In this document: in pieces, positions 1 to 29,585 of the stretch
Layout of the letters: each line of letters opens with the position of its first letter
Numbering within the stretch: the stretch's first letter is position 1
Origin: Ktedonobacterales bacterium
Lineage (GTDB): Bacteria; Chloroflexota; Ktedonobacteria; Ktedonobacterales; JADMIN01
Reading direction: 5' to 3'
Length of the DNA stretch: 32,000 nucleotides
Assembly: GCA_030167145.1 (NCBI GenBank)
Contig: CP126532.1
Span: 900,001-932,000 of the forward strand
The notes under the pieces: model-generated
What the model saw: the letters and a program-made list of their open reading frames with translations, nothing else
The model's database searches: none
What the model was told of the DNA's origin: nothing
Translations under genes and position numbers: made by a program

Positions 1-126
1 AATGTGTTTTGGGGTGATGAGAATCCGGCTTCAAACTATATGCAGGGCGCGATTCAGACGCAGGGTTCGCAGGATGACGTGATGCGCCTGGACGCGATGG
101 CGATGTTCATCTATCTTGGCCAGTGA
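1..126 (+). CDS. 3' end of an unidentified protein-coding gene (partial; start lies outside the window)
   Basis: Frame 1 is open from base 1 and reads NVFWGDENPASNYMQGAIQTQGSQDDVMRLDAMAMFIYLGQ, ending at TGA 124-126. Third-position GC bias matches neighbouring genes. No family can be recognised from 41 residues. Confidence 0.4.
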   Translation, partial: NVFWGDENPASNYMQGAIQTQGSQDDVMRLDAMAMFIYLGQ

Positions 127-191
127 GCTATCTCGGCCAGTGAGCTATCTCGGCCAGTGAGCTATCTCGGCCAGTGAGCTATCTCGGCCAG
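111..191. repeat. 17-bp tandem repeat, about 4.8 copies (unit ctatctYggccagtgag)
   Basis: Copies lie at 111-127 (t at 117), 128-144, 145-161 and 162-178 (the last three identical), with a partial copy at 179-191. The first copy contains the last four codons and the stop codon of the upstream CDS. Confidence 0.95.
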
Positions 192-351
192 GGAGCGCGT
201 TCAGCAGAGTGCCTACGCAATCCAACCCTCTCTAGCCATAGGCGCTTTTCCCGTATACATCAACGACCGCTTCTGTCATACTCGCACAGAACTCTCCATC
301 AGCCCGTTCATGCGCGGGCGATAGTCGGAGGATCTGAGTGGGAGGATAGCA

Positions 352-1680
352 GTGCGGTTAACGAGCGAACAGGTGCTGGCGCTGGCTCCTGATGCCAGTT
401 CCGCCGCCGCTGGAAAGAAGCAGGCCAATCCGCGCGTCTGGCGCAACCTGGGCCAGAACGAGCATGCCGCCTGGGGCGAGTGCCAGGGCAGCGCGGTGTA
501 TCAGGTGCGCGTGGAGCTAGAGACCTTCACGGTGAAATGTACCTGCCCCAGCCATAAGTTCCCTTGCAAGCACGGCCTCGGCCTGCTGCTGCTGGCCGCC
601 GATGGCAAGACTGTGCCCGCAGCGGAGCCGCCCGAATGGGTCGCCTCGTGGCTGGCCAAGCGCGCCGCGACCGAAAGCGCCAAACGCGAAAAAGTGGCGG
701 AATCGGCGAAAGCGGCAGACGACGCGCCTACCAAAGAGCAGCTCAAGCGGATCGAGAAGCGCGAAAATCTTGTCGCGCACGGCCTGGATGCGCTGGACCT
801 CTGGCTTAGCGATTTGATGCGCAATGGGCTTGCGGGACTCGAAGGGCAGCCCGTCACTTTTTGGGAGCGGCAGGCCGCGCAGATGGTGGATAGCCAGGCC
901 CAAGGTATCGCGGGCCGGATTCGTAGCATGGCGGAAATTCCCGGCTCCGTTCCGGACTGGCCCGCGAAGCTGCTCGGCCAGCTTGGCCGCCTCGCGCTGC
1001 TCAGCCACAGCTACCGCCGTGGTGATGCGCTGGACCCCGCGCTGCGCGAAGATGTGCGCCAACTGACCGGCTGGACGCTCAAAGAGGACGAGGTTACGGC
1101 GCGCGGCGAGACCGTGACCGATGACTGGCTGCTGCTGGGCCAGCACATTGAGGACGAAGAGCGGGGCAAGGCGCAGCGCACCTGGCTGCTCGGCGTGCAG
1201 AGCCTTCGCCCGGCGTTGATCCTCCAGTTCTCGTTCATGAACCAGCCGCTCAAGGAGATGCTGGCGCCGGGTATCCGGCAGCATGGCGATCTCAGCTTCT
1301 GGCCGGGGGCAGCGCCGTTGCGCGCGCACTTCTCCGCACGCTCCGCTGATACCGCTCCCATTAGCGCGTTGCCCGGCCATGAGAGCATCGAGGTGTTTCT
1401 GGGCAGCGCCGCTGCCCTGCTGGCGCGCCAGCCCTGGCACGAGCGCTTTTTGTGTTCCCTGCGCAACGTTACCCCCATCTACGACATCACGCGCGACCGC
1501 TGGCACATCCGCGACTCAACCGGCGCGGCCTTACCGCTGCGCTCCGGCGGCCACTGGCGCTTGCTCGCCATATCTGGCGGCGCGCCCGTGGATTTCGCGG
1601 GCGAATGGGATGGCGAAACGCTGCTTCCCCTGGGTGCGTTGGCCGCGAACGAGTATTACCTGCTAGGGCAAGGAGCCTGA
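352..1680 (+). CDS. SWIM zinc-finger family protein (YehQ-like), first gene of the five-gene module
   Basis: GTG start at 352, 6 nt after GGAGG (341-345). SWIM CxCx(n)CxH signature VKCTCPSHKFPCKHGLG. The N-terminus EQVLALAPDASSAAAGKK is typical, as I recall, of SWIM proteins encoded next to DUF5691 and AAA genes. Confidence 0.85.
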   Translation: MRLTSEQVLALAPDASSAAAGKKQANPRVWRNLGQNEHAAWGECQGSAVYQVRVELETFTVKCTCPSHKFPCKHGLGLLLLAADGKTVPAAEPPEWVASWLAKRAATESAKREKVAESAKAADDAPTKEQLKRIEKRENLVAHGLDALDLWLSDLMRNGLAGLEGQPVTFWERQAAQMVDSQAQGIAGRIRSMAEIPGSVPDWPAKLLGQLGRLALLSHSYRRGDALDPALREDVRQLTGWTLKEDEVTARGETVTDDWLLLGQHIEDEERGKAQRTWLLGVQSLRPALILQFSFMNQPLKEMLAPGIRQHGDLSFWPGAAPLRAHFSARSADTAPISALPGHESIEVFLGSAAALLARQPWHERFLCSLRNVTPIYDITRDRWHIRDSTGAALPLRSGGHWRLLAISGGAPVDFAGEWDGETLLPLGALAANEYYLLGQGA

Positions 1681-1683
1681 ATC

Positions 1684-3249
1684 ATGCACGATCTGCTCAC
1701 GACGGCTCTGGTCGGCACGGCCCAGGCGGGAGCCGTCAGCCCAACCACTGATACCGAAGTTGATACACTAACCGAACAATTACCAGCAGATGACGCCGAG
1801 CGCAGGCTGCTGCTCACCGCTGGCGCGGCTGCAATGTATGCGCTCGCGGGCTACGTGCCCGAAATGCTGGCCGCGACTCCCGAACCCGCTTCGGCTGAGA
1901 CGCTGCCAGCATGCTCACCTGGCACGACAGTGCTACTTCGCGACCTACTCGCCAACCGTCAAGGCGTCCTGCTGCCAGAGGCGCTGGCGCGTCTGCAAAA
2001 TGCCGGGCTGCGCCTGCCGCCCGACCTGCTGCCGCTGGCGCTGGACGTGCGCGAACCAGCGTCACGCGGCGCACTCATCCCCGTGCTAGGCGAGCGTGGC
2101 CGCTGGCTCAGCCAGTTCAATCCGGCGTGGTCGTGGGCGCGGGATGCGCTGACCACCGGCGAAGCGAATATGCCCGCTGCGGCTGAGACCGTCTGGCAGG
2201 AGGGCACACCTGGCCAGCGCCACGAACTGCTCAAGCTGCTGCGCGCCACCGATCCCGCGAAAGCGCGCGACTGGCTGCAAGCCGCCTGGAAGCAAGAGAA
2301 AGCCGATGTGCGACGCGAATTCCTCTCCGCGCTCAGTATCAACCTTGGCCCCGATGACGAGGCATTCCTCGAAACGGCGCTGGATGACCGTTCCACCACG
2401 GTCCGCGACACCGCCGCCAATCTGCTGATGCGGTTGCCTACCTCAGCCTTCATCGCGCGGATGATCGCCCGTGCTGATCCGCTGCTCAGCTACGCCGATG
2501 GCGCGCTCGACGTGGAGATCCCGTCCAGCCTCGATCCCGCCGCCAGTCGCGACGGCGTCCCCGGCGATTCGCTGAATGATGCCGGTCACCGCGTCGGCCT
2601 GCTGATCTATCTGTTGGGCCACGTGCCACCCGTACACTGGCAGGAGCGCTTCAGCCTCGATCCCGCCGCCTTTGTGGCTGCCGTAGAGAACTCCCTCTGG
2701 CCGCTAGAAGCCTTGGAAGGCCTGGCCCGTGCCGCCGCGCTGTTTGACGACCAGGAGTGGGCGCTGCCACTGTGGCGCTACTGGTCCGCGCCGCGCAAGG
2801 CCGACACCGAGCGCCAGGTTGAGCTGCTCGGCGAGCTACCGTTATTGCTCGCGCCGCACGTGCCGCACGCCGAATGGGAAGCATGGGCGCTGCATATGCT
2901 GGCGGAGGCGAGCGATGACCAGCGCGAACTGTATGGCGACATCTTCGCGTGGTCTCCGAGCCAGTGGAGCCGCGACTTTGGCGACGGCTATCTCGCCGCG
3001 CTACGCGCGTTCATCGCTGGCCTCAATAAGAAATCGAAGAGCGCTGAGCCGTGGGATGACACGCTCGAATCTGCCGCGCTGGCGCTGCCGCCGGAGTGCT
3101 TCGCCGCCGCGCTTGCGTCCTTCGATCTGCCCGAAGACAACACCACCTGGCAGATCCAGAACTTCCGCCGCCAGCTCGATGCGTTTGCCGATACCATCCG
3201 CGTCCGCCAGCGCATCTACGACGAGATTCCAGTCGCAGATGTCCGCTAA
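1684..3249 (+). CDS. DUF5691-like protein (helical-repeat protein of the SWIM/AAA/VWA module)
   Basis: ATG lies 3 nt after the SWIM stop and is preceded by AAGGAG. The product is 521 aa, Leu/Ala-rich and looks like a helical repeat protein. The N-terminus MHDLLTTALVGTAQAG and the position after the SWIM gene match my recollection of DUF5691 proteins. The family call rests on memory, not a search. Confidence 0.65.
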   Translation: MHDLLTTALVGTAQAGAVSPTTDTEVDTLTEQLPADDAERRLLLTAGAAAMYALAGYVPEMLAATPEPASAETLPACSPGTTVLLRDLLANRQGVLLPEALARLQNAGLRLPPDLLPLALDVREPASRGALIPVLGERGRWLSQFNPAWSWARDALTTGEANMPAAAETVWQEGTPGQRHELLKLLRATDPAKARDWLQAAWKQEKADVRREFLSALSINLGPDDEAFLETALDDRSTTVRDTAANLLMRLPTSAFIARMIARADPLLSYADGALDVEIPSSLDPAASRDGVPGDSLNDAGHRVGLLIYLLGHVPPVHWQERFSLDPAAFVAAVENSLWPLEALEGLARAAALFDDQEWALPLWRYWSAPRKADTERQVELLGELPLLLAPHVPHAEWEAWALHMLAEASDDQRELYGDIFAWSPSQWSRDFGDGYLAALRAFIAGLNKKSKSAEPWDDTLESAALALPPECFAAALASFDLPEDNTTWQIQNFRRQLDAFADTIRVRQRIYDEIPVADVR

Positions 3250-3274
3250 AGAAGATGGGAAGAGGGGAGTGAAA

Positions 3275-3835
3275 ATGAATGACCTCACCGAGCTAGCCGA
3301 GCTAATCCGCGCAAGAAATGCCATAGACACACTCATCGCGCGGCGCGTTGGCCGCCCAGCGCATATCGGCCATGTCGGCGAATTTCTTGCCTGCGCCATC
3401 TTCAATATCCAACTGGAAGAATCCGCCACAGCCAGGGCAATTGATGGGCGTTTTGTAGATGGCCCGCTCGCCGGACGCACCGTCAATGTTAAATGGTTCA
3501 CTAAGCACGATGGTCTGCTGGACATCAACGAGGATACGAGCCTCGATTACTATCTCGTGTTTAAAGGGCCCAAAACACCGCCAGCCTCATCTCGCGGAGC
3601 CATTGCGCCGTGGGTCATCGAGTATGTCTTCCTCCTCGACGCTCAGCAGTTGTTGGAGAATCTGCGCTGTCGAAATGTCAAAATCCAGCGACACGGTGCT
3701 ACTGGCATCGCCAGCGCGCTATGGGAGCAAGCCGAGATTTACCCGGTCCAACGCAACATAACGTTGATGCTCACGGAGACTCAGCGCGCTCAGCTCGCCC
3801 TGTTTAGTTTGACTATCCCAAAGGCTGGCACATGA
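3275..3835 (+). CDS. Hypothetical 186-aa protein inserted into the module; unassigned family, possible nuclease-like fold
   Basis: The ATG at 3275 is preceded by AGGGGAG (3263-3269). The upstream part of track ORF 2729-3835 overlaps the DUF5691 gene in another frame and was trimmed. G+C is visibly lower than in the flanking genes. The segment HIGHVGEFLACAIF...AIDGRF...TVNVKW loosely resembles an E...D...xK nuclease-type core, but this is unverified. Confidence 0.65.
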   Translation: MNDLTELAELIRARNAIDTLIARRVGRPAHIGHVGEFLACAIFNIQLEESATARAIDGRFVDGPLAGRTVNVKWFTKHDGLLDINEDTSLDYYLVFKGPKTPPASSRGAIAPWVIEYVFLLDAQQLLENLRCRNVKIQRHGATGIASALWEQAEIYPVQRNITLMLTETQRAQLALFSLTIPKAGT

Positions 3836-4310
3836 TGAACATTTACGTATTTCGTCAACTCCGGCCACTCCGGCCACTCGTGGGGCAGACAGTTCCGTCT
3901 TCCCGCACACGAGGTGCGCAAAATCGGCCACTCCGGCCACTGCTCGCAGGCGCAAGTCGAAAAATCGGCAGAATCGGCAACTGTCCTCATGCATGCAACA
4001 CCAAACTGTGGCGAAAACGGCGAAAAATCTCCCCCCACTTCTCGTCGTCTCCGACCATCTACCGTCATTTACTCCCCATGCACCCACAAAAAACGGCCAT
4101 ATCGGCCACTTCGCTCACCGGACAATTCTATGTTCGGCTACTGCCGAAGGTTGTAATCGCGGCGAAAACGGCGAAAATTCCACGGACAAATACGGCTATT
4201 CACAGTCACATCACCCCATACGCCCAGCAAATATCGGCCATATCGGCCAGTGACCACACTCGCTAGTCAGAGCAGAAAGGAGCGCGACGTTCTGTCGCGA
4301 CAGACAACCC
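3836..4310 (+). other. 475-nt C-rich, G-poor non-coding spacer inside the operon (candidate rut-like region, ncRNA or protein-binding array)
   Basis: No convincing CDS is present. Three plus-strand ORFs and two minus-strand ORFs overlap here because stop codons are scarce. A hand count of 4021-4260 gives C=85, G=41 of 240 nt, about 52% G+C, clearly lower than the flanking genes by eye. Confidence 0.5.
3861..4250. repeat. Array of seven 9+9-nt direct-repeat dimers in two sequence classes
   Basis: The sites are: 3861-3878 ccggccact x2; 3924-3941 tcggccact/ccggccact; 3963-3980 aatcggcag/aatcggcaa; 4010-4027 ggcgaaaac/ggcgaaaaa; 4094-4111 cggccatat/cggccactt; 4161-4178 ggcgaaaac/ggcgaaaat; 4233-4250 atcggccat/atcggccag. 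Spacing between sites is irregular, 39-84 nt. Confidence 0.85.
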
Positions 4311-5441
4311 ATGACCAACCAGAAGAAAGCGCCCGCCACCGTCATCGCCGATGCGCCCGCCCTCGAAAGCGTACTGCGGCAGCATGCCGAGCAGCAGTTC
4401 GCCGAAGAGTTGGCAGAACTGGTGAAGATTGACGACCGCCAGCGCCCACCCAACTGGAAGCTCTCGCCCTGGGCCGTGCGCGCCTACCTGCTCGGCGGCA
4501 AGCTCCCCAATGGCTTCACTGTCAGCCCCAAGTATATCGGCAACGCGCGGCTGATCGAGATTGCCGTTGCCACCCTCGCCACTGACCGCGCCCTGCTGCT
4601 CTACGGCGTTCCGGGGACCGCAAAATCGTGGACAAGCGAGCATCTCGCCGCCGCGATCACCGGCGACTCGACGCTGATGATTCAGGGCACGGCAGGCACC
4701 GATGAAGCGGCGATCCGCTATGGCTGGAACTACGCGCGGCTGCTGGTTGAGGGGCCGTCGCCCGCCGCGCTGGTCGTCAGCCCGATGATGCAGGCCATGC
4801 AATCGGGCAATATCGCACGCATCGAAGAACTGACCCGCATCCCCGCCGAGGTGCAGGACACGCTGATCACCATCCTCTCCGAAAAGACGCTGCCCGTGCC
4901 GGAGCTTGGCATGGAGGTGCAGGCGCGCAAAGGCTTCAACGTCATCGCCACAGCCAATAACCGCGACAAAGGCGTGAACGAACTATCCAGCGCGCTCACC
5001 CGCCGCTTCAATACCGTGGTTCTGCCCACACCGGCGACGATGGACGAGGAGATAGACATCGTCGAGCGGCGCGTCGCCAGCCTGGGCCGCGCGCTGGAAC
5101 TGCCCGCTGAGAAGCCCGCGCTCGAAGAGATCCGCCGCGTCGTCACGGTCTTCCGCGAACTGCGCGCGGGCGTCACCGAGGACGGCAAGACCAAGGTCAA
5201 GTCGCCCAGCGGCACGCTCTCCACCGCGGAAGCCATCTCGGTGATGACCAACGGCCTGACGATGGCGGCGTACTACGGCGATGGACTGCTACACGCGGGC
5301 GACCTCGCCGCCGGTCTCACCGGCGCGATCATCAAAGATCCGGTGCAGGATCGCGTTGTGTGGCTGGAATATCTGCAAACCGTGGTCAAAGAGCGCGACG
5401 GCTGGAAAGACCTCTACCGGGCGTGCCATGAGGTGCTGTAG
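4311..5441 (+). CDS. MoxR-class (AAA_5-type) AAA+ ATPase, YehL-like
   Basis: Walker A LLLYGVPGTAKSW, a Walker B-like IARIEELTR segment, and ATANNRDKGVNELSSALTRRF (sensor/Arg region). There is no in-frame start codon between the stop at 4251-4253 and the ATG at 4311. Confidence 0.9.
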   Translation: MTNQKKAPATVIADAPALESVLRQHAEQQFAEELAELVKIDDRQRPPNWKLSPWAVRAYLLGGKLPNGFTVSPKYIGNARLIEIAVATLATDRALLLYGVPGTAKSWTSEHLAAAITGDSTLMIQGTAGTDEAAIRYGWNYARLLVEGPSPAALVVSPMMQAMQSGNIARIEELTRIPAEVQDTLITILSEKTLPVPELGMEVQARKGFNVIATANNRDKGVNELSSALTRRFNTVVLPTPATMDEEIDIVERRVASLGRALELPAEKPALEEIRRVVTVFRELRAGVTEDGKTKVKSPSGTLSTAEAISVMTNGLTMAAYYGDGLLHAGDLAAGLTGAIIKDPVQDRVVWLEYLQTVVKERDGWKDLYRACHEVL

Positions 5442-5443
5442 CA

Positions 5444-7765
5444 ATGAGCGTTCATATTTTCGGCGTCCGGCACCACGGCCCCGGCTGCGCCCGCGCCCTG
5501 CGCGCAGCGCTTGAGGCGCTTCAGCCGGATATCCTTCTCGTCGAAGGGCCGCCCGACGCAGAGGGCGCGCTACCGCTGCTGACACACGAGGCGATGAAGC
5601 CGCCGGTTGCGCTGCTGATCTACGTTCCTGACCAGCCTAGCCGCGCCGTCTTCTATCCGTTCACCACCTTCTCACCGGAATGGCAGGCGCTCGGCTATGC
5701 GCTGGGCCGGGGCATTCCCGCGCGCTTCATGGATCTACCGCAGGCAATCCAGCTTGCGCGCGAGCCGGTCGCGGAGGAGCAGGCTACGCCGCCCGCCGAT
5801 GATTTGCCCGCCGCCGCCGATAGCGGACACCCGCACAGCGCGCCCACGGACGAGAAACCGGCCATATCGGCCACTGCTACCCCGCCGCCGGACCCACTGG
5901 CGATGCTCGCCGAAGCCGCTGGCTACGACGACCACGAACTCTGGTGGGAGCAGCAGATCGAGCAGCGCCGCGACTCCACCGGCGTCTTCGAGGGCATCTT
6001 CGAGGCGATGAGCGCCCTGCGCGCCGACCTCACCCCGCGCGACGACGAAGAGGCGCAGCGCGAGGCTCACATGCGCAGCAGCATTCGCGCCGCCGAAGGC
6101 GAGGGATTCGCGCGTATTGCCGTCGTCTGTGGCGCGTGGCATGCCCCGGCGCTGGCCCAGCGCGACGACGCGAAGGCCGACACGGCACTGTTCGCCAAGC
6201 TCAAGCGCGTCAAAGTCGAGACGACCTGGATTCCCTGGACCAACTCGCGCCTGGCCTATCGCAGTGGCTACGGCGCGGGCATCACCTCGCCGGGCTGGTA
6301 CGGCCACCTGTGGGCCGCGCCTGACCGTGTGCCCATCCGCTGGGCGACCCAGGCGGCGCAACTGCTGCGCGGCGAAGGGCTGGACGCCTCATCGGCCAGC
6401 GTGATCGAGACGGTGCGGCTGAGCGAGGCGCTGGCGGCGATGCGTGGGCTGCCGATGCCGGGCATGGCTGAGATGCGCGAGGCAATCCAGACGGTGCTCT
6501 GCCACGGCGAAACGGCACCGATGCAACTGATTCGCGATAAGCTGGAGATCGGCGAGGCGATGGGCGAAGTACCGCCAGAGGCACCCGCCGTGCCGCTGCA
6601 ACGTGACCTCGACGCGCAGGCGCGGCGGCTCACACTGAAGCTCACCGCCGAAATCAAGGACTACGACCTGGACCTCCGCAAAGACACCGACCGCGTACGC
6701 AGCCAGTTGCTGCACCGGCTGGGAATGCTGGGCATTGGTTGGGGAGAAGAACAGCACACCTACGGCAAGCTCGGCACATTCCACGAGAAGTGGCGACTTC
6801 AATGGCAGCCCGAATTCGCTGTCGCGCTGATCGAGGCGAATATCTGGGGCAATACCGTCGCGTCGGCAGCCGCCGCGCGCACGCGCCAGCTTGCCACCGT
6901 CGCGCCCGATCTGCCCGCGCTCACGGCGCTGCTGGAGCGCGCACTGCCCGCCGATCTGCCCGATGCCTTGGAGGATTTGCTTGAACGGGTACGCGACCGC
7001 GCCGCCGTCTCCAGCGATGTGCGCCACCTGATGGACGCGCTGCCGCCGCTGGCGCGTATCGTCCGCTATGGCGACGTGCGCGGCACCAAGGCCGAGCGCG
7101 TTACGCCGGTGATAGACGCGCTGTTCGAGCGGGCGCTGGTTGGGCTGCCCGGCGCGTGCCTCTCGCTCGACGACGACGCGGCGACGGCGATGGTCACGAG
7201 CATAGACAACGTGCAGGAGACCGTGAGCATGCTCAATCGCGATGACCAGCGCGCGCCCTGGCTCGCCACGCTGCGCCTGCTGGTAGACCGCGATGGGGTG
7301 CATGGGCTGGTGCGCGGACGCTGCTGCCGCCTGCTGCTGGAGATGCGTGCGCTGGCAAGCGAAGAACTGCGGCGGCTCGCCGGTCTGGCGTTCTCGCCGG
7401 TCAATCCGCCTGAGCAGGCCGTCGATTGGATTGAAGGGGTGCTGCGCGGTCCCGGCCTGAAGCTGTTGCAACAGGATGACCTCTGGCGCGCGCTCGACGC
7501 CTGGCTCGCTAACCTCGCGCCCGATATCTTCGTCACGCTGCTGCCACTGTTGCGCCGCGCGTTCTCTGGCTTCTCCGCGCCGGAGCGTCGCCAGATGGGC
7601 GAGAAGGTCAAGCTTCTCAGCGTAGAGGAAGCCGCAGGGACGCTGGGTGTGCGACCGTCTGGCGAAGGCGGTGCTACACACGGGCCGATTGCACAAGAGC
7701 GTGCGAATACCGTGCTGCCCGTGCTGGCGCAGATTTTGGGGGTGAACTATGAACCCGGCAACTGA
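5444..7765 (+). CDS. DUF5682-like large protein, YehM-like
   Basis: ATG lies 2 nt after the AAA stop. The product is 773 aa. The N-terminus MSVHIFGVRHHGPGCARALRAALEALQPDILLVEGPPD matches my recollection of DUF5682 and YehM-type proteins. A low-complexity Pro/Ala linker is present (about 5750-5900). Confidence 0.8.
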   Translation: MSVHIFGVRHHGPGCARALRAALEALQPDILLVEGPPDAEGALPLLTHEAMKPPVALLIYVPDQPSRAVFYPFTTFSPEWQALGYALGRGIPARFMDLPQAIQLAREPVAEEQATPPADDLPAAADSGHPHSAPTDEKPAISATATPPPDPLAMLAEAAGYDDHELWWEQQIEQRRDSTGVFEGIFEAMSALRADLTPRDDEEAQREAHMRSSIRAAEGEGFARIAVVCGAWHAPALAQRDDAKADTALFAKLKRVKVETTWIPWTNSRLAYRSGYGAGITSPGWYGHLWAAPDRVPIRWATQAAQLLRGEGLDASSASVIETVRLSEALAAMRGLPMPGMAEMREAIQTVLCHGETAPMQLIRDKLEIGEAMGEVPPEAPAVPLQRDLDAQARRLTLKLTAEIKDYDLDLRKDTDRVRSQLLHRLGMLGIGWGEEQHTYGKLGTFHEKWRLQWQPEFAVALIEANIWGNTVASAAAARTRQLATVAPDLPALTALLERALPADLPDALEDLLERVRDRAAVSSDVRHLMDALPPLARIVRYGDVRGTKAERVTPVIDALFERALVGLPGACLSLDDDAATAMVTSIDNVQETVSMLNRDDQRAPWLATLRLLVDRDGVHGLVRGRCCRLLLEMRALASEELRRLAGLAFSPVNPPEQAVDWIEGVLRGPGLKLLQQDDLWRALDAWLANLAPDIFVTLLPLLRRAFSGFSAPERRQMGEKVKLLSVEEAAGTLGVRPSGEGGATHGPIAQERANTVLPVLAQILGVNYEPGN

Positions 7766-8969
7766 GGCGAAACACGATAGCGAACGACTGAAGCGCTGGC
7801 GGTTGGTGCTGGGTGGCGCTTCCGCCGAGGGATTGGGCATGAGCGGCGGTGGGGGGCGTGGCGGAGGCGGCAGCGACGGTATGCCCGGTCTCAGCGCCGA
7901 GGAAGCGGCGATGGATGACGCGCTGGCCGCGCTCTACGACGAAGAGCGCTCCGCCGGGCTGGGCGGCTCGTCGCCACGTGTGGCGCGCTGGCTAGGCGAC
8001 ATCCGCCAGTATTTTCCCACGTCGGCCGTCCGGGTAATGCAAAAAGACGCGCTGGAACGCCTGAACCTGACGCAGATGCTGATGGAGCCGGAGCTTTTGC
8101 AGACCGTCGAGGCCGATGTGCATCTGGTCGCCACGCTGCTCTCGCTCAGCAAGGTCATGCCCGATAAGACCAAGGATACGGCACGGCAGGTGGTCCGCAA
8201 GGTAGTCGAAGAGTTGGAGCGCAAGCTCGCTAATCCGCTGCTGCAGGCGGTGCGCGGCAGCCTGAACCGCGCCACGCGCACCAGCCGCCCCCGTGCGGGC
8301 GAGATAGACTGGGATCGCACCATCCGCGCAAACCTGAAGAACTATCTGCCCGACCGCCAAACGATCATCGCCGAAAAGCTCGTCGGCTACGGCCACAAGC
8401 GGTCCTCGCTGCGTGATGTGGTGCTCTGCGTGGACCAGAGTGGCTCGATGGCGACCTCGGTGGTCTATTCCGGTATCTTCGGCGCGGTGCTGGCCTCGAT
8501 CCGCGCTATCGCGACGCGCATGGTGGTCTTCGATACCGCCGTGGTGGACCTGACGGACGACCTGCACGATCCCGTGGATCTGCTCTTCGGCACGCAGCTT
8601 GGCGGCGGCACCGACATCAATCGCGCCCTGGCTTATTGCCAGCAGATTATCACCCGTCCGGCGCAGACGATTCTGGTGCTGATCACTGATCTCTATGAAG
8701 GCGGCAACGAGAAAGAGATGCTCAAGCGCGCGGCGGACCTGATCGGTGGTGGGGTGAAGATGGTCTGCTTGCTGGCGCTGAACGACCAGGGCACGCCGAG
8801 CTTCGATTCAGGCAATGCTGCCAAGCTGGCGAACATGGGCTGCGCAACCTTCTCCTGCACGCCGGATCTGTTCCCCGACCTGATGGCCGCCGCCATCCAG
8901 CGCCGCGACCTGGCGCTGTGGGCCGCGCACAACGACATCGTCACCGTGCGGGCCGGAGAAGACGCATGA
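7749..8969 (+). CDS. VWA domain protein (CoxE-like VWA type, YehP-like)
   Basis: The ATG overlaps the previous gene by 17 nt and is preceded by GGGGGTG. The N-terminus contains RWRLVLGG and a Gly-rich tract. MIDAS motif VLCVDQSGSM (DxSxS). Confidence 0.85.
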   Translation: MNPATEAKHDSERLKRWRLVLGGASAEGLGMSGGGGRGGGGSDGMPGLSAEEAAMDDALAALYDEERSAGLGGSSPRVARWLGDIRQYFPTSAVRVMQKDALERLNLTQMLMEPELLQTVEADVHLVATLLSLSKVMPDKTKDTARQVVRKVVEELERKLANPLLQAVRGSLNRATRTSRPRAGEIDWDRTIRANLKNYLPDRQTIIAEKLVGYGHKRSSLRDVVLCVDQSGSMATSVVYSGIFGAVLASIRAIATRMVVFDTAVVDLTDDLHDPVDLLFGTQLGGGTDINRALAYCQQIITRPAQTILVLITDLYEGGNEKEMLKRAADLIGGGVKMVCLLALNDQGTPSFDSGNAAKLANMGCATFSCTPDLFPDLMAAAIQRRDLALWAAHNDIVTVRAGEDA

Positions 8970-16230: not shown

Positions 16231-16851
16231 CTACTTCGTCTTGGTCTGGCTCACATACAGGCACGACTTGGCGGGATACTCATTAGTGGTCGTAACGCCC
16301 GGATTGACGAACAGCGAGACCACATTCGTGTCACCTTGGTTGTACGTGGCGCTGACAATCGTCGTGACCAGATCAGAGTTATGGTGATTCTTGTCCACCA
16401 GAATCGCATGCGCGTGGACGATGGTGAACACGCCACCAGTCTGGGTGCCGATATAGTGGATGAAGTCGTTGTAGCTGACCTGGATGTGCTGATTGGGGTT
16501 GTGCGGCGCGCCCTTCACCCCTTCAACGATCTCGACGCAGTGGCCGCTTGGCGAGTGGCAGCCAGGGACGATGGAGTTCGCCAGCCGGGGCTTGTCACGC
16601 GCCAGCACCACGCCGCCCATCGCACCCACTGCCGCGACCGCGCCGCCCGCCGCGACCGCCGCGCGCAGGAAGCGCCGCCGGCTCGTCGGGTCGGCCAAAC
16701 CTCTTGCGCGAGCCTGGCGCGCCTGCCCATCCGCTGGTGGCGGATTCAGCCATGGGTTCGTCGCCGGATCGCTATTGGGGGCATTCCGCTCCGGCGGAGA
16801 CGGGGGAGACCATTGATTGGTCTCTTCAGGATTGCCGTTGTTCTGATCCAT
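16231..16851 (-). CDS. Tat-signal secreted His-rich protein, paralog A (unknown family)
   Basis: The ATG at 16851 is preceded by GAAGTGGAG. The twin-arginine motif TSRRRFLRAAV is followed by a hydrophobic h-region AAGGAVAAVGAMGGVVLA. A 57-aa extension precedes the RR. The mature domain contains HC...PHNPNQH...VHAHA...KNHHN...SC. Confidence 0.75.
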   Translation of the reverse strand: MDQNNGNPEETNQWSPPSPPERNAPNSDPATNPWLNPPPADGQARQARARGLADPTSRRRFLRAAVAAGGAVAAVGAMGGVVLARDKPRLANSIVPGCHSPSGHCVEIVEGVKGAPHNPNQHIQVSYNDFIHYIGTQTGGVFTIVHAHAILVDKNHHNSDLVTTIVSATYNQGDTNVVSLFVNPGVTTTNEYPAKSCLYVSQTKTK

Positions 16852-17145
16852 GGTATGATGACTCCACTTCATCAGGCTACGCATGCACTACTATTGCATG
16901 CCACACAAGCGCATGCGAATAATGGTAGCCTGCCACTACTGCTAACGGACCAAAGCATATCTAATAACAGTCGCCCAGACAATCCACCACTACATAATGG
17001 CTACTCGTTATAGCGAACCAATGGGAATCAGCATGGGGGAAACATTCTACGGAGCAAGGAAGGCAAGGAGGATACAGTACGCAAAGGATGCCGGATAGGC
17101 CTGGAGTTATGTGCATCGGGCGGATGTTTTCGAGCATATGCCAAT

Positions 17146-17190: not shown

Positions 17191-17826
17191 CTAGGGGCGA
17201 GTTGCGCTCAGCGTCTGGCTGACATACAGGCACGACTTGGCCGGATACTCATTCGTCGTGGTGACGCCGGGGTTGACGAGGAGCGAGACCACGGCCGTAT
17301 TCCCTTGCTCGAAGTCGGCGCTGATGATGGTGGTGATCAGATCGGGGTTATGATGATTCTTATCCACCAGAATCGCGTGCGAATGCACGATGGTGAACGT
17401 ATTGGTACCGATGTCATAGGTGCCGATGTACGTGATGAAATCGTTGTAGCTGACCTGAATGTGCTGGTTCGGGTTTTGTGGCGAGCCTTTCACCCCTTCG
17501 ACGATCTCGATGCAGTGGCCGCTAGGTGTCACGCTACCTGGCAGGATGGAGTTCGCCAGCCGGGGATGGTTCCGGGCCATGACCACGCCACCCATCGCAC
17601 TCACCGCCGCGACCGCGCCGCCCGCTACCACCGCTGTGCGCAGAAAGCGCCGCCGGCTCGTCGGATCCGACACGCTCCCTAACGCGGTATGCGTCTCCGG
17701 TTCGGCGGCTTGTGGCGGATTCAGCCACGGATTAGTCGCCGGATCGTTATTTGGAACGGTTCGCTCCGGCGGAGACGGGGGAGACCATTGATTGGTCTCT
17801 TCAGGATTGCCGTTGTTCTGATCCAT
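17191..17826 (-). CDS. Tat-signal secreted His-rich protein, paralog B
   Basis: The ATG at 17826 has the same GAAGTGGAG leader as paralog A. Contains TSRRRFLRTAV followed by an h-region. By eye it is roughly three quarters identical to paralog A at the protein level, and the first 65 nt of the two CDSs are identical. Confidence 0.75.
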   Translation of the reverse strand: MDQNNGNPEETNQWSPPSPPERTVPNNDPATNPWLNPPQAAEPETHTALGSVSDPTSRRRFLRTAVVAGGAVAAVSAMGGVVMARNHPRLANSILPGSVTPSGHCIEIVEGVKGSPQNPNQHIQVSYNDFITYIGTYDIGTNTFTIVHSHAILVDKNHHNPDLITTIISADFEQGNTAVVSLLVNPGVTTTNEYPAKSCLYVSQTLSATRP

Positions 17827-18189
17827 GTTACGATGACTCCACTTCCAAAGGCTGCGCATGGAACAATGTGTCCCCGCCAGCCACCTCGTCACTGCCACTT
17901 AGAACGACCCTGAACAATGGCACTGGCGCGTACCATGATACGCTGGCCACCCATCCGTTCCGGGCTGCGCGCTACTCACAAACCTGAGCAACGATATGAG
18001 CCTGCGTGGCGCTCATGCGCCTTCGATTATTTTGCCATCAGTAACAACGGGCCTTGGGAGATTTCATAACAGTCCATTCGGACTACCCCCCCCTAATAGT
18101 CCTAGGGCGAGACGCTCTAAAATCACGAAGAAGCATTGCCTGCGAGCGTCTTGCGCTTCCATTGGGAGTGAAATGTCACGCTGCGAGTG

Positions 18190-28794: not shown

Positions 28795-28832
28795 CCTGAC
28801 GGCATGACCTGACGGCATGACCTGATGACATG
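28795..28832. repeat. 13-bp tandem repeat, about 2.9 copies (cctgacggcatga)
   Basis: 28795-28807 and 28808-28820 are identical; 28821-28832 is degenerate (cctgatgacatg). Located in the intergenic region upstream of coaE. Confidence 0.7.
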
Positions 28833-28967: not shown

Positions 28968-29585
28968 ATGCCATATATCTTGGGCCTCACCGGTAATATC
29001 GCGAGCGGCAAAACGACCATCGGCTTGATGCTCTTAGAGCTAGGCGCCCACAGCTACATTGACGCTGATCTCGTCGTCCACGAGTTGTATCTGCCTGGTC
29101 AGCCGCTCGTTCCCCGTTTGGCGGAAGCATTCGGCCAGGACGTAGTCACTGCGGATGGCGGCATAGACCGGCAGAAGCTCGGCGCGATAGTCTTCGGCGA
29201 TGCCGAAAAGTTGAAATTGCTCGAAAGCATCGTTCACCCGGTCGTGCAGGATGCGCTGTTGCAACGTCTGCGCGAGATACCCGAAGGCACGGTGGGCGTC
29301 TTCGACGCGGTGAAGCTCATCGAATCGGGGTATGCGCCGATGTGCCACGGGGTCTGGCTCGTCATCTCTCCGCCAGAGGTGCAGCTTGCGCGGCTGATGA
29401 GCACGCGCGGGCTGAGCGAAGCGGAGGCGCGGTTGCGGCTGGCGGCCCAGCCCGATATGAGCGCCAAGCGTGAGTTCGCCACCGAGATAATAGACAACAG
29501 CGGGTCGCTGACTGATCTGCGAGCGCAGGTGACGGCGGCGTGGCAGCGGTTCCAGGTATCGCTTCACGAGACGGAGGAGCCGTGA
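28968..29585 (+). CDS. coaE: Dephospho-CoA kinase
   Basis: MPYILGLTGNIASGKTT P-loop, IDADLVVHELY and IVHPVV motifs, and typical length. The stop TGA (29583-29585) overlaps the pyk start codon. Confidence 0.9.
   Translation: MPYILGLTGNIASGKTTIGLMLLELGAHSYIDADLVVHELYLPGQPLVPRLAEAFGQDVVTADGGIDRQKLGAIVFGDAEKLKLLESIVHPVVQDALLQRLREIPEGTVGVFDAVKLIESGYAPMCHGVWLVISPPEVQLARLMSTRGLSEAEARLRLAAQPDMSAKREFATEIIDNSGSLTDLRAQVTAAWQRFQVSLHETEEP

What the first reader, a model, noticed from the sequence alone, without database searches (positions are those of the whole stretch)
3861..4250. Array of seven 9+9-nt direct-repeat dimers in a C-rich, G-poor, stop-codon-depleted spacer
Seen in sequence: there are seven sites, each a tandem duplication of a 9-mer. 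Class 1 is (A/C)(T/C)CGGCCA(C/T)-type (3861-3878, 3924-3941, 4094-4111, 4233-4250, with a relative aatcggcaR at 3963-3980). Class 2 is ggcgaaaac/ggcgaaaaW (4010-4027 and 4161-4178, nearly identical over 20 nt). Spacing between sites is 39-84 nt. The plus strand is strongly skewed (C=85 versus G=41 of 240 nt in 4021-4260). Three plus-strand ORFs and two minus-strand ORFs of 80-144 codons in the supplied track overlap here, which is not what a single real gene produces. Because the units are 9 nt long, every frame reads tripeptide repeats (RPLRPL, IGHSGH, AISAT and so on), which argues for selection at the nucleotide level. Established knowledge: long C-rich, G-poor unstructured RNA is the hallmark of Rho utilisation (rut) sites, and clustered short direct repeats are typical of iteron or operator arrays and of protein-sponging RNAs. 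Inference: the array could be an intra-operon Rho-dependent attenuator, a multivalent binding platform (DNA or RNA) for a module protein, or a novel ncRNA.
Basis: partly seen in the sequence, partly recalled or inferred. Interest (0 to 1): 0.68.

Follow-up and report, generated by a model that had tools for sequence, protein, structure and literature searches.

The report
Interspersed 9-nt "CGGC-box" repeat array
The seven 9+9-nt dimers are real, but they are not a control site made for this operon: they are a local cluster of a short, one-directional repeat that also occurs in other Chloroflexota genomes, here filling a recent 1-kb insertion between two formerly overlapping genes.

Summary
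Observation confirmed. There are seven tandem 9+9-nt dimers at the stated coordinates, against 0.4 expected by chance, and only at period 9. C=85 and G=41 as reported, and forward-strand stop codons are depleted.

The dimers share one architecture: an A-rich run followed by CGGC-N5-CGGC. Four of the seven match a motif model built only from other genomes. The same "CGGC box" forms strictly one-directional arrays in long intergenic regions of two Chloroflexia MAGs and a Ktedonobacterales MAG. It also occurs in frame, always as (S/T/P)-A-(K/E)-type codons, in disordered protein linkers, including this window's SWIM and DUF5682 genes.

In 86 related loci, DUF5691 directly abuts or overlaps the AAA gene wherever both genes are present in the locus. 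Only the window's lineage carries the low-GC insertion. This consists of a 186-aa BisI/PvuII-like nuclease gene plus the array.

The spacer is non-coding by four tests: flat GC by codon position, no homologues, shifting box frames and no Rfam match. It also holds the strongest C>G stretch of the window.

Best reading: a STAR/MIRU-like interspersed repeat cluster co-transcribed with the operon. Its local effect, uncoupling the genes and possibly exposing the RNA to Rho, is inferred. A dedicated SWIM- or 186-aa-protein-binding platform is not supported. What copies or reads the box remains unknown.

The parts
3250..4310 (+). About 1.06-kb lineage-specific insertion between DUF5691 (stop at 3249) and the AAA_5/MoxR gene (start at 4311). 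It comprises the 186-aa gene plus the repeat spacer. GC is 0.54-0.55 against 0.65-0.68 in the flanking genes.
   Evidence: In relatives the two genes overlap by 4 nt (L175-L178, L183, L184) or abut wherever both are present in the 80 metagenome loci. None of those loci encodes the 186-aa protein.
3275..3835 (+). 186-aa gene (distant DUF6998 relative) with a small PD-(D/E)XK restriction-endonuclease-like fold. It is foreign by composition (GC3 0.62).
   Evidence: Pfam DUF6998 at E=0.001, below the cut-off. 227 homologues at E<=0.001 (120 listed), in diverse taxa. AF2 model pLDDT 87.6, pTM 0.85. Foldseek best hits are Eco15I N-domain and NhoI (E 8e-5 to 2e-4, TM up to 0.59/0.71), then PvuII. Invariant or nearly invariant H33, G35, E36, D57, N71 and K73. 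Homologues lie next to SIR2, SNase, PLD, NB-ARC and SLFN genes.
3836..4310 (+). 475-nt non-coding, C-rich intercistronic spacer carrying the array.
3861..3878 (+). Dimer 1, CCGGCCACT x2 (2.4 copies from 3858). This is the CGGCCA variant and is conserved in relatives L002-L005.
   Evidence: The motif model built from other genomes does not recognise it (-7.3 bits). It is assigned through its 17-nt identity with dimer 2 (D9).
3924..3941 (+). Dimer 2, ATCGGCCAC/TCCGGCCAC, preceded by GCGCAAAAT. It is absent from relatives L002-L005.
   Evidence: Model score +1.5 bits, among the 29 best of 64,000 positions.
3963..3980 (+). Dimer 3, AATCGGCAG/AATCGGCAA. This is the canonical CGGC box: with its flanks (3958-3982) it is 25/25 identical in relatives, and its 18-mer occurs in other Chloroflexota.
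   Evidence: Model score 32.5-32.7 bits. Conserved island in alignment A1. All five short-read contigs of this lineage end at or just after it. Exact copies are found in MAG arrays.
4009..4026 (+). Dimer 4, TGGCGAAAA/CGGCGAAAA.
   Evidence: Model score 12.1 bits.
4094..4111 (+). Dimer 5, CGGCCATAT/CGGCCACTT, preceded by CACAAAAAA.
   Evidence: Model score 17.7-17.9 bits.
4160..4177 (+). Dimer 6, CGGCGAAAA x2 (exact).
   Evidence: Model score 15.9-16.1 bits.
4231..4250 (+). Dimer 7, ATATCGGCC x2.1 (exact). It directly abuts the remnant of the ancestral gene junction.
   Evidence: Model score 7.1 bits.
4021..4100 (+). Most extreme C>G (rut-like) stretch of the whole 32-kb window, mostly the spacer between dimers 4 and 5 (4029-4093: 30 C, 5 G).
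3832..4266 (+). 144-codon ORF spanning the array. Its ATG overlaps the 186-aa gene's TGA (ATGA). It is judged not to encode a conserved protein, but it could still be translated as a bridging ORF.
4250..4257 (+). GTGACCAC, a remnant of the ancestral overlapping DUF5691 stop and AAA start (L175 reads ...CTGTGACCACGATGACCAAC).
   Evidence: A chance 8-mer match at this spot is about 1e-3 by my estimate.
4258..4310 (+). 53-nt lineage-specific leader of the AAA gene. It contains AAAGGAG (4277-4283) and a 6-bp hairpin, CGCGAC-GTTCT-GTCGCG (4285-4301), with no T-run.
682..725 (+). In-frame CGGC box (TGGCGGAAT/CGGCGAAAG/CGGCAGACG, reading ..KVAESAKAAD..) in a variable-length linker of the SWIM protein. 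An orthologous copy sits at the same residue in L175.
   Evidence: Model scores 25.8 and 18.2 bits. TRF period 9 x 2.9. Protein alignment, L175 site at 3472.
5852..5873 (+). In-frame CGGC box (CGGCCATATCGGCCA, reading EKPAISA) in the hypervariable linker of DUF5682. Relatives carry 1-3 copies of CGGCAAAAACGGCAA-type boxes at the same place.
   Evidence: (D5).
111..196 (+). 17-nt x5 tandem array, CTATCTCGGCCAGTGAG, starting in the last codons of the upstream gene. It shares the 11-mer TCGGCCAGTGA with dimer 7. It is probably related, but the motif model does not match it.
3809..3836 (+). Sigma-70-like promoter match TTGACT-16-CATGAT at the end of the 186-aa gene. It is weak and poorly conserved in relatives.

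Best explanation
The seven dimers are copies of a short, strand-specific interspersed repeat that I call the CGGC box. A box is two to four head-to-tail 9-mers of the form RAAnCGGCN, with the middle two best conserved and an A-rich run in front. In Ktedonobacteria-like and other Chloroflexota, this box occurs in one-directional arrays with variable spacers of about 10-170 nt in long intergenic regions. It also occurs in frame in disordered linkers of proteins.

In this window the array is the 3' part of a low-GC insertion of about 1 kb. The insertion consists of a BisI/PvuII-like nuclease gene plus the array, and it split a DUF5691/AAA_5 junction that is overlapping and presumably translationally coupled in relatives.

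How it most likely works:
- Shown: the array is not specific to this operon or to the 186-aa protein, it is non-coding here, and it lies on the sense strand.
- Inferred: units arise by 9-nt slippage and are spread or homogenised by recombination among copies, much like STAR or MIRU repeats. The array is co-transcribed with the operon, because no terminator separates the genes. Its local consequence is that of a 475-nt C-rich, poorly structured spacer. Such a spacer uncouples AAA/DUF5682/VWA translation from the upstream genes and can expose the transcript to Rho unless ribosomes read through the stop-poor frames.
- Not shown: any dedicated regulatory role.
For: Family membership. A position weight matrix built only from arrays in other genomes scores 32.5, 17.7, 15.9 and 12.1 bits at dimers 3, 5, 6 and 4. 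It also finds two further in-frame sites in the SWIM gene. Block shuffles of the window give 0.05 hits at the 12-bit threshold.

Dispersed arrays elsewhere. The exact 18-mer of dimer 3 occurs on four separate contigs in each of two Chloroflexia MAGs and once in a Ktedonobacterales MAG. Eight of these nine loci hold an array of 4-20 boxes, and the ninth (L022, at a locus edge) shows two adjacent boxes. Within each locus all boxes point the same way. No operon or 186-aa homologue lies nearby.

Shared properties. C>G skew on the motif strand is seen in all arrays, spacers included. The boxes lie on the sense strand of the upstream or host gene in all 8 independent contexts examined.

Nucleotide-level constraint. 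In coding arrays, 14/14 and 11/11 boxes are in one frame. The rare third-position A (GCA) is fixed: 43 of 51 box Ala codons are GCA, against 41 of 223 elsewhere in the same ORFs. The first codon base varies.

Rapid turnover. Between syntenic loci with 76-89% identical flanks, the array DNA cannot be aligned, yet both keep 11-14 boxes. Window versus L002-L005 shows the same pattern. Box copy number in the DUF5682 linker differs among close relatives. Five independent short-read contigs break at dimer 3.

Insertion. No related locus that shows the DUF5691/AAA junction has the 186-aa gene or a long spacer there. GC is 0.54-0.55 against 0.65-0.68, and a junction remnant survives.

Non-coding, unstructured..
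Against: - I saw 8-kb pieces of three other genomes and 32 kb of this one, so 'genome-wide' in the source genome is inferred only from contig breaks.
- Three of the seven dimers (the CGGCCA variants at 3862, 3925 and 4235) score poorly with the foreign-genome matrix and are assigned by architecture.
- Identical 18-25-mers persisting across distant lineages, strict unidirectionality and sense orientation are more than a purely neutral repeat predicts. They hint at a trans-acting factor or a function.
- Stop-codon depletion in all three forward frames is significant here (4 of 500 shuffles) and is left unexplained by a junk model.
- No copying mechanism was found: no inverted repeats, no hairpin, no associated gene.
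- The two Chloroflexia MAGs may contain assembly indel errors, so some 'non-coding' arrays there might be coding.
Confidence: 0.5

Rival explanations
1. The CGGC boxes are functional recognition sites for an unidentified sequence-specific factor, such as a multimeric RNA-binding protein, a single-strand binder, or a ribbon-helix-helix-type DNA binder that reads tandem short repeats. The factor would act on the sense transcript or the non-template strand. The array would then be a multivalent platform that sets the stability, termination or translation of the downstream AAA/DUF5682/VWA genes.
For: The box core is conserved (CGGC at 95-98% over 73 instances), with an extended four-unit consensus. 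Identical 18-25-mers occur in distant lineages while spacers turn over. Arrays are strictly unidirectional. Boxes are on the sense strand in 8 of 8 contexts. The fixed third codon positions inside genes show a nucleic-acid constraint. Start-to-start spacings show a weak periodicity of about 11 nt (Rayleigh z=10, n=30).
Against: - No candidate factor was found.
- Box position relative to promoters or start codons is not fixed. Arrays lie upstream of promoters (L034), between convergent genes (L006) and inside ORFs (L056, L080).
- A decayed box sits at the orthologous SWIM-linker site in L095, which argues against strong constraint there.
- Box variants (CGGCA, CGGCCA, CGGCGA) coexist in one array.
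- The periodicity test is small and post hoc.
Confidence: 0.22
2. The spacer is a selected intra-operon Rho-dependent attenuator. Rho loads on the C-rich, G-poor RNA and terminates before the AAA gene, unless translation of the stop-poor frames shields the RNA. ORF 3832-4266, coupled to the 186-aa gene through ATGA, could provide that shielding.
For: The strongest C>G stretch of the window is at 4021-4100 (34 C, 7 G). C/G is 1.7-1.8 in the relatives' spacers too. The RNA has weak structure (z -1.7). There is no intrinsic terminator. Forward stops are depleted and the ORF is ATGA-coupled, in L002-L005 as well. All arrays are C>G skewed on the strand of the upstream gene.
Against: - Rut sites need no conserved 9-nt dimers, and class 2 boxes (CGGCGAAAA) contain no YC dinucleotides (reasoning from what is known about Rho).
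- The same boxes occur inside translated ORFs, where Rho cannot act.
- The ancestral operon works without any spacer, so attenuation would be a by-product of the insertion rather than its purpose.
- Nothing here tests Rho dependence.
Confidence: 0.12
3. The array is a decayed, frameshifted remnant of coding low-complexity sequence. The 9-mer equals three codons, (S/T/P)-A-(K/E), and CGGC boxes would primarily be building blocks of disordered Ala/Lys/Ser/Thr/Pro-rich linkers. Intergenic arrays would be dead C-terminal tails or dead linkers.
For: The period is exactly 9, which is three codons, and no other period is seen. In genes the boxes are always in the same frame. Arrays follow the upstream gene on its own strand. 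Box spacings in 'non-coding' arrays are multiples of three more often than expected (19 of 38, P=0.025). The forward frames here are poor in stops. Spacer composition resembles that of the coding arrays.
Against: - Homologues of the 186-aa protein have no such tail, and the AAA proteins of relatives have no such N-terminal extension.
- Box frames in the window are 0,0,2,0,1,1,1, and short-read contig L001 confirms the first shift.
- GC3 is flat.
- The fixed rare codons show that DNA, not peptide, is what is conserved. Even in genes, therefore, the box behaves as a DNA element.
Confidence: 0.1
4. The dimers are excision footprints (9-bp target-site duplications) of a cut-and-paste transposon with a CGGC target preference.
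For: Each site is a duplication of a somewhat different 9-mer. Nine bp is a common target-duplication length (my own knowledge). The sites lie in dispensable DNA.
Against: The same 15-25-mers recur many times. The conserved A-rich 5' unit and the weaker fourth unit give a consensus of 3-4 units rather than a simple 2x duplication. Three-copy sites occur. Orientation within arrays is strict. No transposase gene lies nearby in any locus.
Confidence: 0.03

Closest known systems
STAR (Staphylococcus aureus repeat) elements: interspersed intergenic direct repeats (PMC3532100)
   Same: [quoted passage not shown] Both form arrays at many intergenic loci, expand and contract, and differ in location between species. 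For both, function and propagation mechanism are unknown.
   Different: There is no sequence similarity. The CGGC box is itself a 2-4-unit tandem of 9-mers. STAR spacers are 'recurring sequences', whereas these are unique and turn over. CGGC boxes also occur in frame inside genes. The phylum differs (Chloroflexota against Bacillota).
MIRU, mycobacterial interspersed repetitive units (Supply et al. 1997, as summarised in PMC3184786)
   Same: Both lie between genes of an operon and are transcribed in the polycistronic mRNA. Both contain an ORF whose end overlaps the neighbouring gene (here the ATGA overlap with the 186-aa gene). Homologous loci in relatives lack them. Both are dispersed at tens of loci.
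   Different: MIRUs are 40-100-bp units in head-to-tail tandem, with imperfect inverted repeats. Here, 18-36-nt boxes are separated by unique spacers and have no inverted repeats. The window ORF does not reach the downstream start codon.
RPE, Rickettsia palindromic elements ('selfish DNA in protein-coding genes', Ogata et al. 2000; my own knowledge, not checked here)
   Same: Both are repeats found in intergenic DNA and also inserted in frame in protein-coding genes, where they add tolerated peptide segments.
   Different: RPEs are 100-150-bp palindromic elements. CGGC boxes are non-palindromic, far shorter, and cluster in arrays.
Rho utilisation (rut) sites and Rho-dependent attenuators
   Same: Both are long, C-rich, G-poor and weakly structured RNA on the sense strand. 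The stretch here is the most extreme of the window.
   Different: Rut sites have no conserved repeated motif. The boxes also occur in translated regions. Rho dependence was not tested.
Operator or iteron arrays of tandem short repeats (MetJ metboxes, omega-repressor heptads, ParR centromeres, plasmid iterons; my own knowledge)
   Same: A site built of 2-4 contiguous short (7-11-bp) direct repeats with better-conserved core units is the typical layout of such operators.
   Different: Those arrays sit at one or a few promoters or origins beside the gene of their binding protein. CGGC-box arrays are dispersed and up to about 1.2 kb long. They lie inside genes and between convergent genes, and no cognate protein gene was found.
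CRISPR arrays
   Same: Both have a repeat-spacer-repeat layout with conserved repeats and fast-changing spacers, and both are unidirectional.
   Different: Here the repeats are degenerate and 18-36 nt long, and spacers vary from about 10 to 170 nt. There are no cas genes, arrays occur inside ORFs, and there are many loci per genome.

Membership tests
Rho-dependent terminator / rut site | C>G skewed stretch of about 80 nt or more on the transcribed strand | tested here: met
   4021-4100 has 34 C and 7 G, the maximum of the whole window on both strands. Spacer GC skew is -0.22.
Rho-dependent terminator / rut site | The RNA is untranslated and weakly structured where Rho loads | tested here: inconclusive
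   Folding z is -1.67, which is weak. However, the forward frames are almost stop-free, and an ATGA-coupled 144-codon ORF could carry ribosomes across the stretch.
Rho-dependent terminator / rut site | Termination depends on Rho (sensitive to bicyclomycin) | not testable with these tools
   This needs Term-seq or RNA-seq with and without bicyclomycin.
Operator / iteron array for a locally encoded protein | The repeats co-occur with the gene of the binding protein across genomes | tested here: not met
   Arrays in nine other loci have no SWIM, DUF5691, 186-aa, AAA, DUF5682 or VWA homologue nearby. No related operon locus that shows the DUF5691/AAA junction has an array there. Homologues of the 186-aa protein have no array.
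Operator / iteron array for a locally encoded protein | Fixed position relative to a promoter or origin | tested here: not met
   Arrays lie upstream of a promoter (L034), between convergent genes (L006), within operons (the window) and inside ORFs (L056, L080, and window 682-725 and 5852-5873).
Structured non-coding RNA (Rfam family or new) | Match to a curated covariance model | tested here: not met
   No hit at gathering score in the window and none at E<=5 in 3700-4400.
Structured non-coding RNA (Rfam family or new) | Stable or conserved secondary structure | tested here: not met
   z is -1.67 on the plus strand and -1.77 on the minus strand. Only the CGGCCA variants can form a trivial 4-bp GGCC hairpin; the CGGCA and CGGCGA boxes cannot. 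The spacers are unalignable in relatives, so covariation could not be tested.
Protein-coding gene (ORF 3832-4266) | Homologues exist, or the reading frame is conserved in relatives | tested here: not met
   There are 0 hits among 1.84 billion representatives. Dimer 3 is read as KIGRIG here and as EKSAESA in L002.
Protein-coding gene (ORF 3832-4266) | Codon-position composition like the host's genes | tested here: not met
   GC1/2/3 is 0.54/0.53/0.56, against GC3 of 0.76-0.83 in the operon genes.
STAR-like interspersed intergenic direct repeats (a kind, not a homology family) | Short direct repeats separated by spacers of tens of nt, in arrays | tested here: met
   Seven boxes are spaced 39-84 nt apart here. 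Other loci have 4-20 boxes.
STAR-like interspersed intergenic direct repeats (a kind, not a homology family) | Many separate loci in one genome | tested here: inconclusive
   This is met in two MAGs, each with four contigs found through a single exact 18-mer. For the source genome only 32 kb is visible. It holds the array, two in-gene sites and a related 17-mer array, and short-read contigs break at dimer 3.
STAR-like interspersed intergenic direct repeats (a kind, not a homology family) | Sequence similarity to the STAR consensus T(G/A/T)TGTTG(G/T)GGCCC(C/A) | tested here: not met
   The consensus here is AAAnCGcnAAAAnCGGCAgAAtCGGCAA. The comparison is therefore an analogy only.
MIRU | Head-to-tail tandem units of 40-100 bp | tested here: not met
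   TRF finds only 9-nt two-copy repeats in the spacer.
MIRU | Intercistronic and sense-oriented, with an ORF overlapping the neighbouring genes' ends | tested here: inconclusive
   The ATGA overlap at the 5' end is present, and is also seen in L002-L005. The ORF ends 45 nt before the AAA start.
CRISPR | Near-identical repeats, uniform spacer length, cas genes | tested here: not met
   The boxes are degenerate and spacers range from about 10 to 170 nt. No cas domain was found in the operon proteins scanned.

The most novel reading that the evidence does not exclude
CGGC boxes would be the recognition code of an unknown sequence-specific factor that acts on sense-strand nucleic acid (mRNA or the non-template strand) across the genomes of filamentous Chloroflexota. 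The code would be so pervasive that it is tolerated, in one reading frame, inside disordered protein linkers. Arrays such as this one would be multivalent regulators or sponges that tune expression of the genes downstream. That would make the box a new global cis-element with a new reader protein.
Probability: 0.2. Interest if true: 0.75.

Novelty: new variant of a known kind. Interest (0 to 1): 0.45.

Why it matters
If the picture holds, this is an undescribed interspersed repeat family in a poorly studied phylum, with three unusual properties:
- The repeat unit is a tandem of 9-mers.
- Arrays are strictly one-directional and lie on the sense strand.
- The same DNA motif occurs in intergenic arrays and, in a fixed reading frame, in disordered protein linkers.

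This gives a concrete handle on how low-complexity linkers and long intergenic spacers are generated and turned over in GC-rich genomes. It also points to an unknown copying or reading factor.

The finding has practical consequences too. These arrays break short-read assemblies and attract spurious ORF calls, and they could serve as strain-typing loci.

For this operon, the finding corrects the reading. The spacer is a recent insertion with a restriction-endonuclease-like passenger gene, not an ancestral control region of the SWIM/MoxR/VWA module.

Tried and rejected
- Rfam at gathering score and at E<=5: nothing.
- RNA folding of both strands: weak z-scores.
- Protein hypothesis for ORF 3832-4266: no homologue in 1.84 billion representatives and flat GC3.
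- Artificial query made of the three-frame translations of the box, meant to find ORFs called over arrays: 623 candidates, none at E<=1.
- Viral contigs. The 186-aa protein has no relatives there. The 16-mer of dimer 3 gives 60 single hits consistent with chance and no arrays.
- blastn of 3200-4320 against plasmids and phages: no match.
- PADLOC: no defence-system assignment for the 186-aa protein, and only weak hits for SWIM and AAA. NCBIfam gave nothing useful. A PDB sequence search for the 186-aa protein found nothing; only the fold search worked.
- Literature searches for DUF5682/DUF5691, DUF6998, Ktedonobacter repeats, 9-bp repeats in Chloroflexi, and MoxR/vWA/SWIM: nothing relevant.
- Other insertions in relatives' operons turned out to be serine-recombinase elements or a partial DUF5691 duplication, not arrays.
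- The class-1-like dimer inside the 186-aa gene (3360-3381) encodes the family's conserved RPAxIGHxGE motif, so I rejected it as a box.
- Transposon-footprint idea: rejected (see the rival explanations).
- Terminal inverted repeats or target duplication for the 1-kb insertion: only a 5-nt CCAGT at both ends, which is not convincing.
- Helical phasing: a weak Rayleigh peak at about 11 nt rather than 10.5, from a small sample. I have not relied on it.
Full report
**1.

Three are exact: 3858-3879, 4160-4177 and 4231-4249.

| Mismatches allowed | Observed | Mean of 2000 dinucleotide shuffles |
|---|---|---|
| 0 | 3 | 0.003 |
| up to 1 | 6 | 0.05 |
| up to 2 | 8 hits (7 sites) | 0.42 (maximum 4) |

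No shuffle reached the observed value. The signal exists only at period 9.

Other claims also check out:
- 4021-4260 has exactly C=85 and G=41.
- 4021-4100 (34 C, 7 G) is the strongest C>G stretch of the whole window on either strand.
- Forward-strand stops are depleted: 4 against 9.8 +/- 2.3, with 4 of 500 shuffles as low.
- The overlapping ORFs are as listed.

**2. One motif, not two classes**

All seven sites have (C/T)GGC-N5-CGGC, and six of the seven follow an A-rich run. Aligning 73 instances from this window and from other genomes gives the consensus AAAnCGcnAAAAnCGGCAgAAtCGGCAA(n)a(n)Cg(n)C. This amounts to about four head-to-tail 9-mers, RAAnCGGCN, with the middle two best conserved. 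I call this the CGGC box.

**3. Setting: a recent insertion in a tight operon**

The genes are:
- SWIM (352-1680)
- DUF5691 (1684-3249)
- a 186-aa gene (3275-3835)
- the 475-nt spacer
- AAA_5/MoxR (4311-5441)
- DUF5682 (5444-7765)
- VWA_CoxE (7749-8969)

In 80 metagenome loci encoding AAA proteins 73-93% identical to this one, DUF5691 runs straight into AAA wherever both genes are present. None of these loci encodes the 186-aa protein. In six further contigs the called genes overlap by 4 nt.

The window therefore carries a lineage-specific insertion of about 1.06 kb. Its GC is 0.54-0.55, against 0.65-0.68 in the flanks.

The last dimer abuts GTGACCAC (4250-4257), which matches the ancestral ...CTGTGACCACGATGACCAAC junction seen in L175. 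After it come 53 new nucleotides with an AAAGGAG and a small hairpin, and then the ATG.

The closest named AAA homologues are from Ktedonobacterales MAGs. The source is therefore probably a Ktedonobacteria-like member of Chloroflexota. This is an inference.

**4. The passenger gene**

- The 186-aa protein has 227 homologues at E<=0.001 (120 listed), in diverse taxa.
- H33, G35, E36, D57, N71 and K73 are invariant or nearly so.
- The AF2 model is confident (pLDDT 87.6).
- The model matches the BisI-family modification-dependent endonucleases Eco15I-N and NhoI, and then PvuII.
- Its homologues sit among SIR2, SNase, PLD, NB-ARC and SLFN genes, with short downstream gaps and no arrays.

It is therefore a defence-island-type nuclease-like gene with no general link to the array.

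**5. Close relatives**

Five short-read contigs carry the 186/187-aa gene at 85-100% identity. One is from the same strain and four are from relatives.

- They keep dimer 1, in a generally conserved 70-nt block.
- They keep dimer 3 as an island of 25 identical nt.
- They lack dimer 2.
- The DNA in between cannot be aligned and differs in length.
- All five contigs end at or within a few nt of dimer 3. This is what a repeated or strain-variable sequence does to a de Bruijn assembly. That reading is an inference.

**6. The same box elsewhere**

The 18-mer of dimer 3 was scanned against one genome per species. Most of the 89 or more hits are single and lie in unrelated phyla. I estimate about 17 would be expected by chance for a random 18-mer in 596 Gb.

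Two Chloroflexia MAGs have hits on four contigs each, and a Ktedonobacterales MAG has one. In eight of these nine loci the match sits in an array of 4-20 boxes. The ninth (L022, at a locus edge) shows two adjacent boxes. All boxes in a locus point the same way, and no box lies elsewhere in the 8-kb pieces. That matrix was built from these same loci, so the counts are descriptive only.

No operon or 186-aa homologue is nearby.

A matrix built only from those loci was then run on the window, which makes it an independent test. Scores:

| Site | Position | Score (bits) |
|---|---|---|
| Dimer 1 | 3862 | -7.3 |
| Dimer 2 | 3925 | 1.5 |
| Dimer 3 | 3966 | 32.5 |
| Dimer 4 | 4009 | 12.1 |
| Dimer 5 | 4094 | 17.7 |
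| Dimer 6 | 4160 | 15.9 |
| Dimer 7 | 4235 | 7.1 |
| SWIM gene site | 695 | 25.8 |
| SWIM gene site | 704 | 18.2 |

Block shuffles give 0.05 hits at the 12-bit threshold. Only 29 of 64,000 positions in the window score at or above 0.

The array is therefore a mix of canonical boxes and a local CGGCCA variant.

**7. Properties of the family**

(a) C>G skew on the motif strand is seen in every array, spacers included: -0.13 to -0.32.

(b) In all eight independent contexts the boxes are on the sense strand of the upstream or host gene.

(c) Boxes also occur inside genes, always in variable-length, low-complexity linkers:
- the SWIM linker here, and at the same residue in L175;
- the DUF5682 linker here (5852-5873), with 1-3 copies in L175-L178;
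- an orthologous protein of about 560-620 aa in two MAGs, whose Ala/Lys/Pro/Ser/Thr-rich middle carries 14 and 11 boxes.

In that MAG protein all boxes are in one frame and all spacings are multiples of three. The frame always reads xCG-GCA-RAA, which encodes (S/T/P)-A-(K/E).

(d) The constraint acts on nucleic acid. The first codon base varies, while the rare A-ending third positions are fixed. GCA accounts for 43 of 51 box Ala codons, against 41 of 223 in the rest of the same ORFs. This comparison is partly circular, because the search pattern allowed only GCA, GCC or GCG.

(e) Turnover is fast. The syntenic loci L056 and L080 have flanks 76-89% identical, but their array regions do not align, even though both keep the boxes.

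(f) A decayed box sits at the orthologous SWIM-linker site in a more distant relative.

**8. The spacer itself is non-coding and unstructured**

- ORF 3832-4266 overlaps the 186-aa stop (ATGA) and spans the array.
- It has flat GC by codon position.
- It has no homologue in 1.84 billion representatives.
- The box frames along the spacer are 0,0,2,0,1,1,1.
- Relatives read dimer 3 in another frame.
- There is no Rfam hit, and folding z is about -1.7.
- No intrinsic terminator separates the genes. A weak promoter-like match lies at 3809-3836.

**9. What it most likely is and does**

Shown:
- The array is a member of a dispersed, one-directional repeat family.
- It lies in a recent insertion.
- It is not tied to the SWIM or 186-aa proteins.

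Inferred:
- Units grow by 9-nt slippage and are spread or homogenised by recombination among copies.
- The array is co-transcribed with the operon.
- Locally it acts as a long C-rich untranslated (or merely read-through) spacer. Such a spacer uncouples the downstream genes and may expose the RNA to Rho.

I put this reading at 0.5.

Rival explanations:

| Rival | Confidence | Main point |
|---|---|---|
| Multivalent binding platform for an unknown sense-strand factor | 0.22 | Favoured by deep conservation of the box, strict polarity and the in-gene constraint |
| Selected Rho attenuator | 0.12 | Composition fits, but the boxes are unexplained and it was not tested |
| Decayed coding low-complexity sequence | 0.10 | Period equals three codons; 19 of 38 spacings are multiples of three, P=0.025 |
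| Transposon excision footprints | 0.03 | Contradicted by the recurring 15-25-mers and the multi-unit consensus |

**10. Comparison with known elements**

The nearest analogues are:
- STAR elements of S. aureus: interspersed intergenic 14-bp direct repeats with spacers of 40 bp or more, and function unknown (PMC3532100).
- MIRUs: intercistronic, co-transcribed, with ORFs overlapping the neighbouring genes (PMC3184786).
- For the in-gene copies, Rickettsia RPEs (my own knowledge).

There is no sequence similarity to any of them. The tandem-9-mer unit, the strict polarity and the fixed-frame coding copies are distinctive. I therefore file the element as a new variant of a known kind rather than a member of any named family.

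**11. Caveats**

- Only 8-kb pieces of three other genomes and 32 kb of the source genome were visible.
- The taxonomic labels are those of the records.
- The two Chloroflexia MAGs may contain indel errors, which would make coding arrays look non-coding.
- The periodicity and frame-coherence signals are weak.
- No experiment bears on transcription, Rho or binding.

Noticed in passing
window 111-196: A 17-nt x5 tandem array, CTATCTCGGCCAGTGAG, begins in the last five codons (including the TGA at 123-125) of the gene that runs off the window start. It lies 155 nt upstream of the SWIM start. It shares the 11-mer TCGGCCAGTGA with the last spacer dimer, but the box matrix does not match it. The same-strain short-read contig L001 starts inside it.
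   Followed up: partly
window 682-725 and 5852-5873: CGGC boxes lie in frame in variable-length linkers of the SWIM and DUF5682 proteins. Relatives L175-L178 carry 1-3 boxes of another variant (CGGCAAAAACGGCAA, reading FPAKTA) at the same DUF5682 site, and L175 has one at the same SWIM residue.
   Followed up: yes
window 3275-3835: The 186-aa gene is compositionally foreign (GC 0.55, GC3 0.62). It is predicted to have a BisI-family (NhoI, Eco15I-N) or PvuII-like endonuclease fold. Its homologues sit in defence-island-like neighbourhoods. The CGGC-like dimer at 3360-3381 encodes the family's conserved RPAxIGHxGE motif and is not a repeat box.
   Followed up: yes
window 4250-4310: GTGACCAC is a remnant of the ancestral overlapping stop/start. 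It is followed by 53 lineage-specific nt with AAAGGAG 27 nt upstream of the ATG and a 6-bp hairpin in between. The hairpin might bring the Shine-Dalgarno sequence closer to the AAA start codon.
   Followed up: partly
L102 7101-8645, L106 7089-7712, L120 5571-7277: In several relatives a low-GC serine-recombinase gene on the opposite strand is inserted between the AAA and DUF5682 genes. In L132 a partial DUF5691 duplication sits between DUF5691 and AAA. The gene junctions of this operon seem to be recurrent insertion points.
   Followed up: partly
L056 (-) about 5100-7000 and L080 (+) about 1250-3400: Orthologous proteins of about 560-620 aa in two Chloroflexia MAGs have a conserved N-terminal domain (GILWYDDDKSRS...), a conserved C-terminal DLWGQP motif and a fast-evolving Ala/Lys/Pro/Ser/Thr-rich middle full of CGGC boxes. 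There is no Pfam match.
   Followed up: partly
L001-L005 (contig ends): All five short-read (Logan) contigs of this lineage stop at or within a few nt of the AATCGGCAGAATCGGCAACT box. These arrays break de Bruijn assemblies, and gene callers place spurious ORFs on them.
   Followed up: partly
window 16244-16885 and 17213-17860: A direct duplication of about 0.65 kb at 81-89% identity, spaced about 970 nt apart. It probably represents tandem paralogous genes.
   Followed up: no
window 28795-28825: A 13-nt x2.4 exact tandem repeat, CCTGACGGCATGA, lies in an intergenic region. About 60 nt downstream there is a good TTGACA ... TACGAT promoter-like pair before the gene at 28968.
   Followed up: no
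window 3809-3836: The only sigma-70-like promoter match in the first 5 kb (TTGACT-16-CATGAT) lies at the very end of the 186-aa gene and would start transcription at the head of the array. It is poorly conserved in L002-L005.
   Followed up: partly
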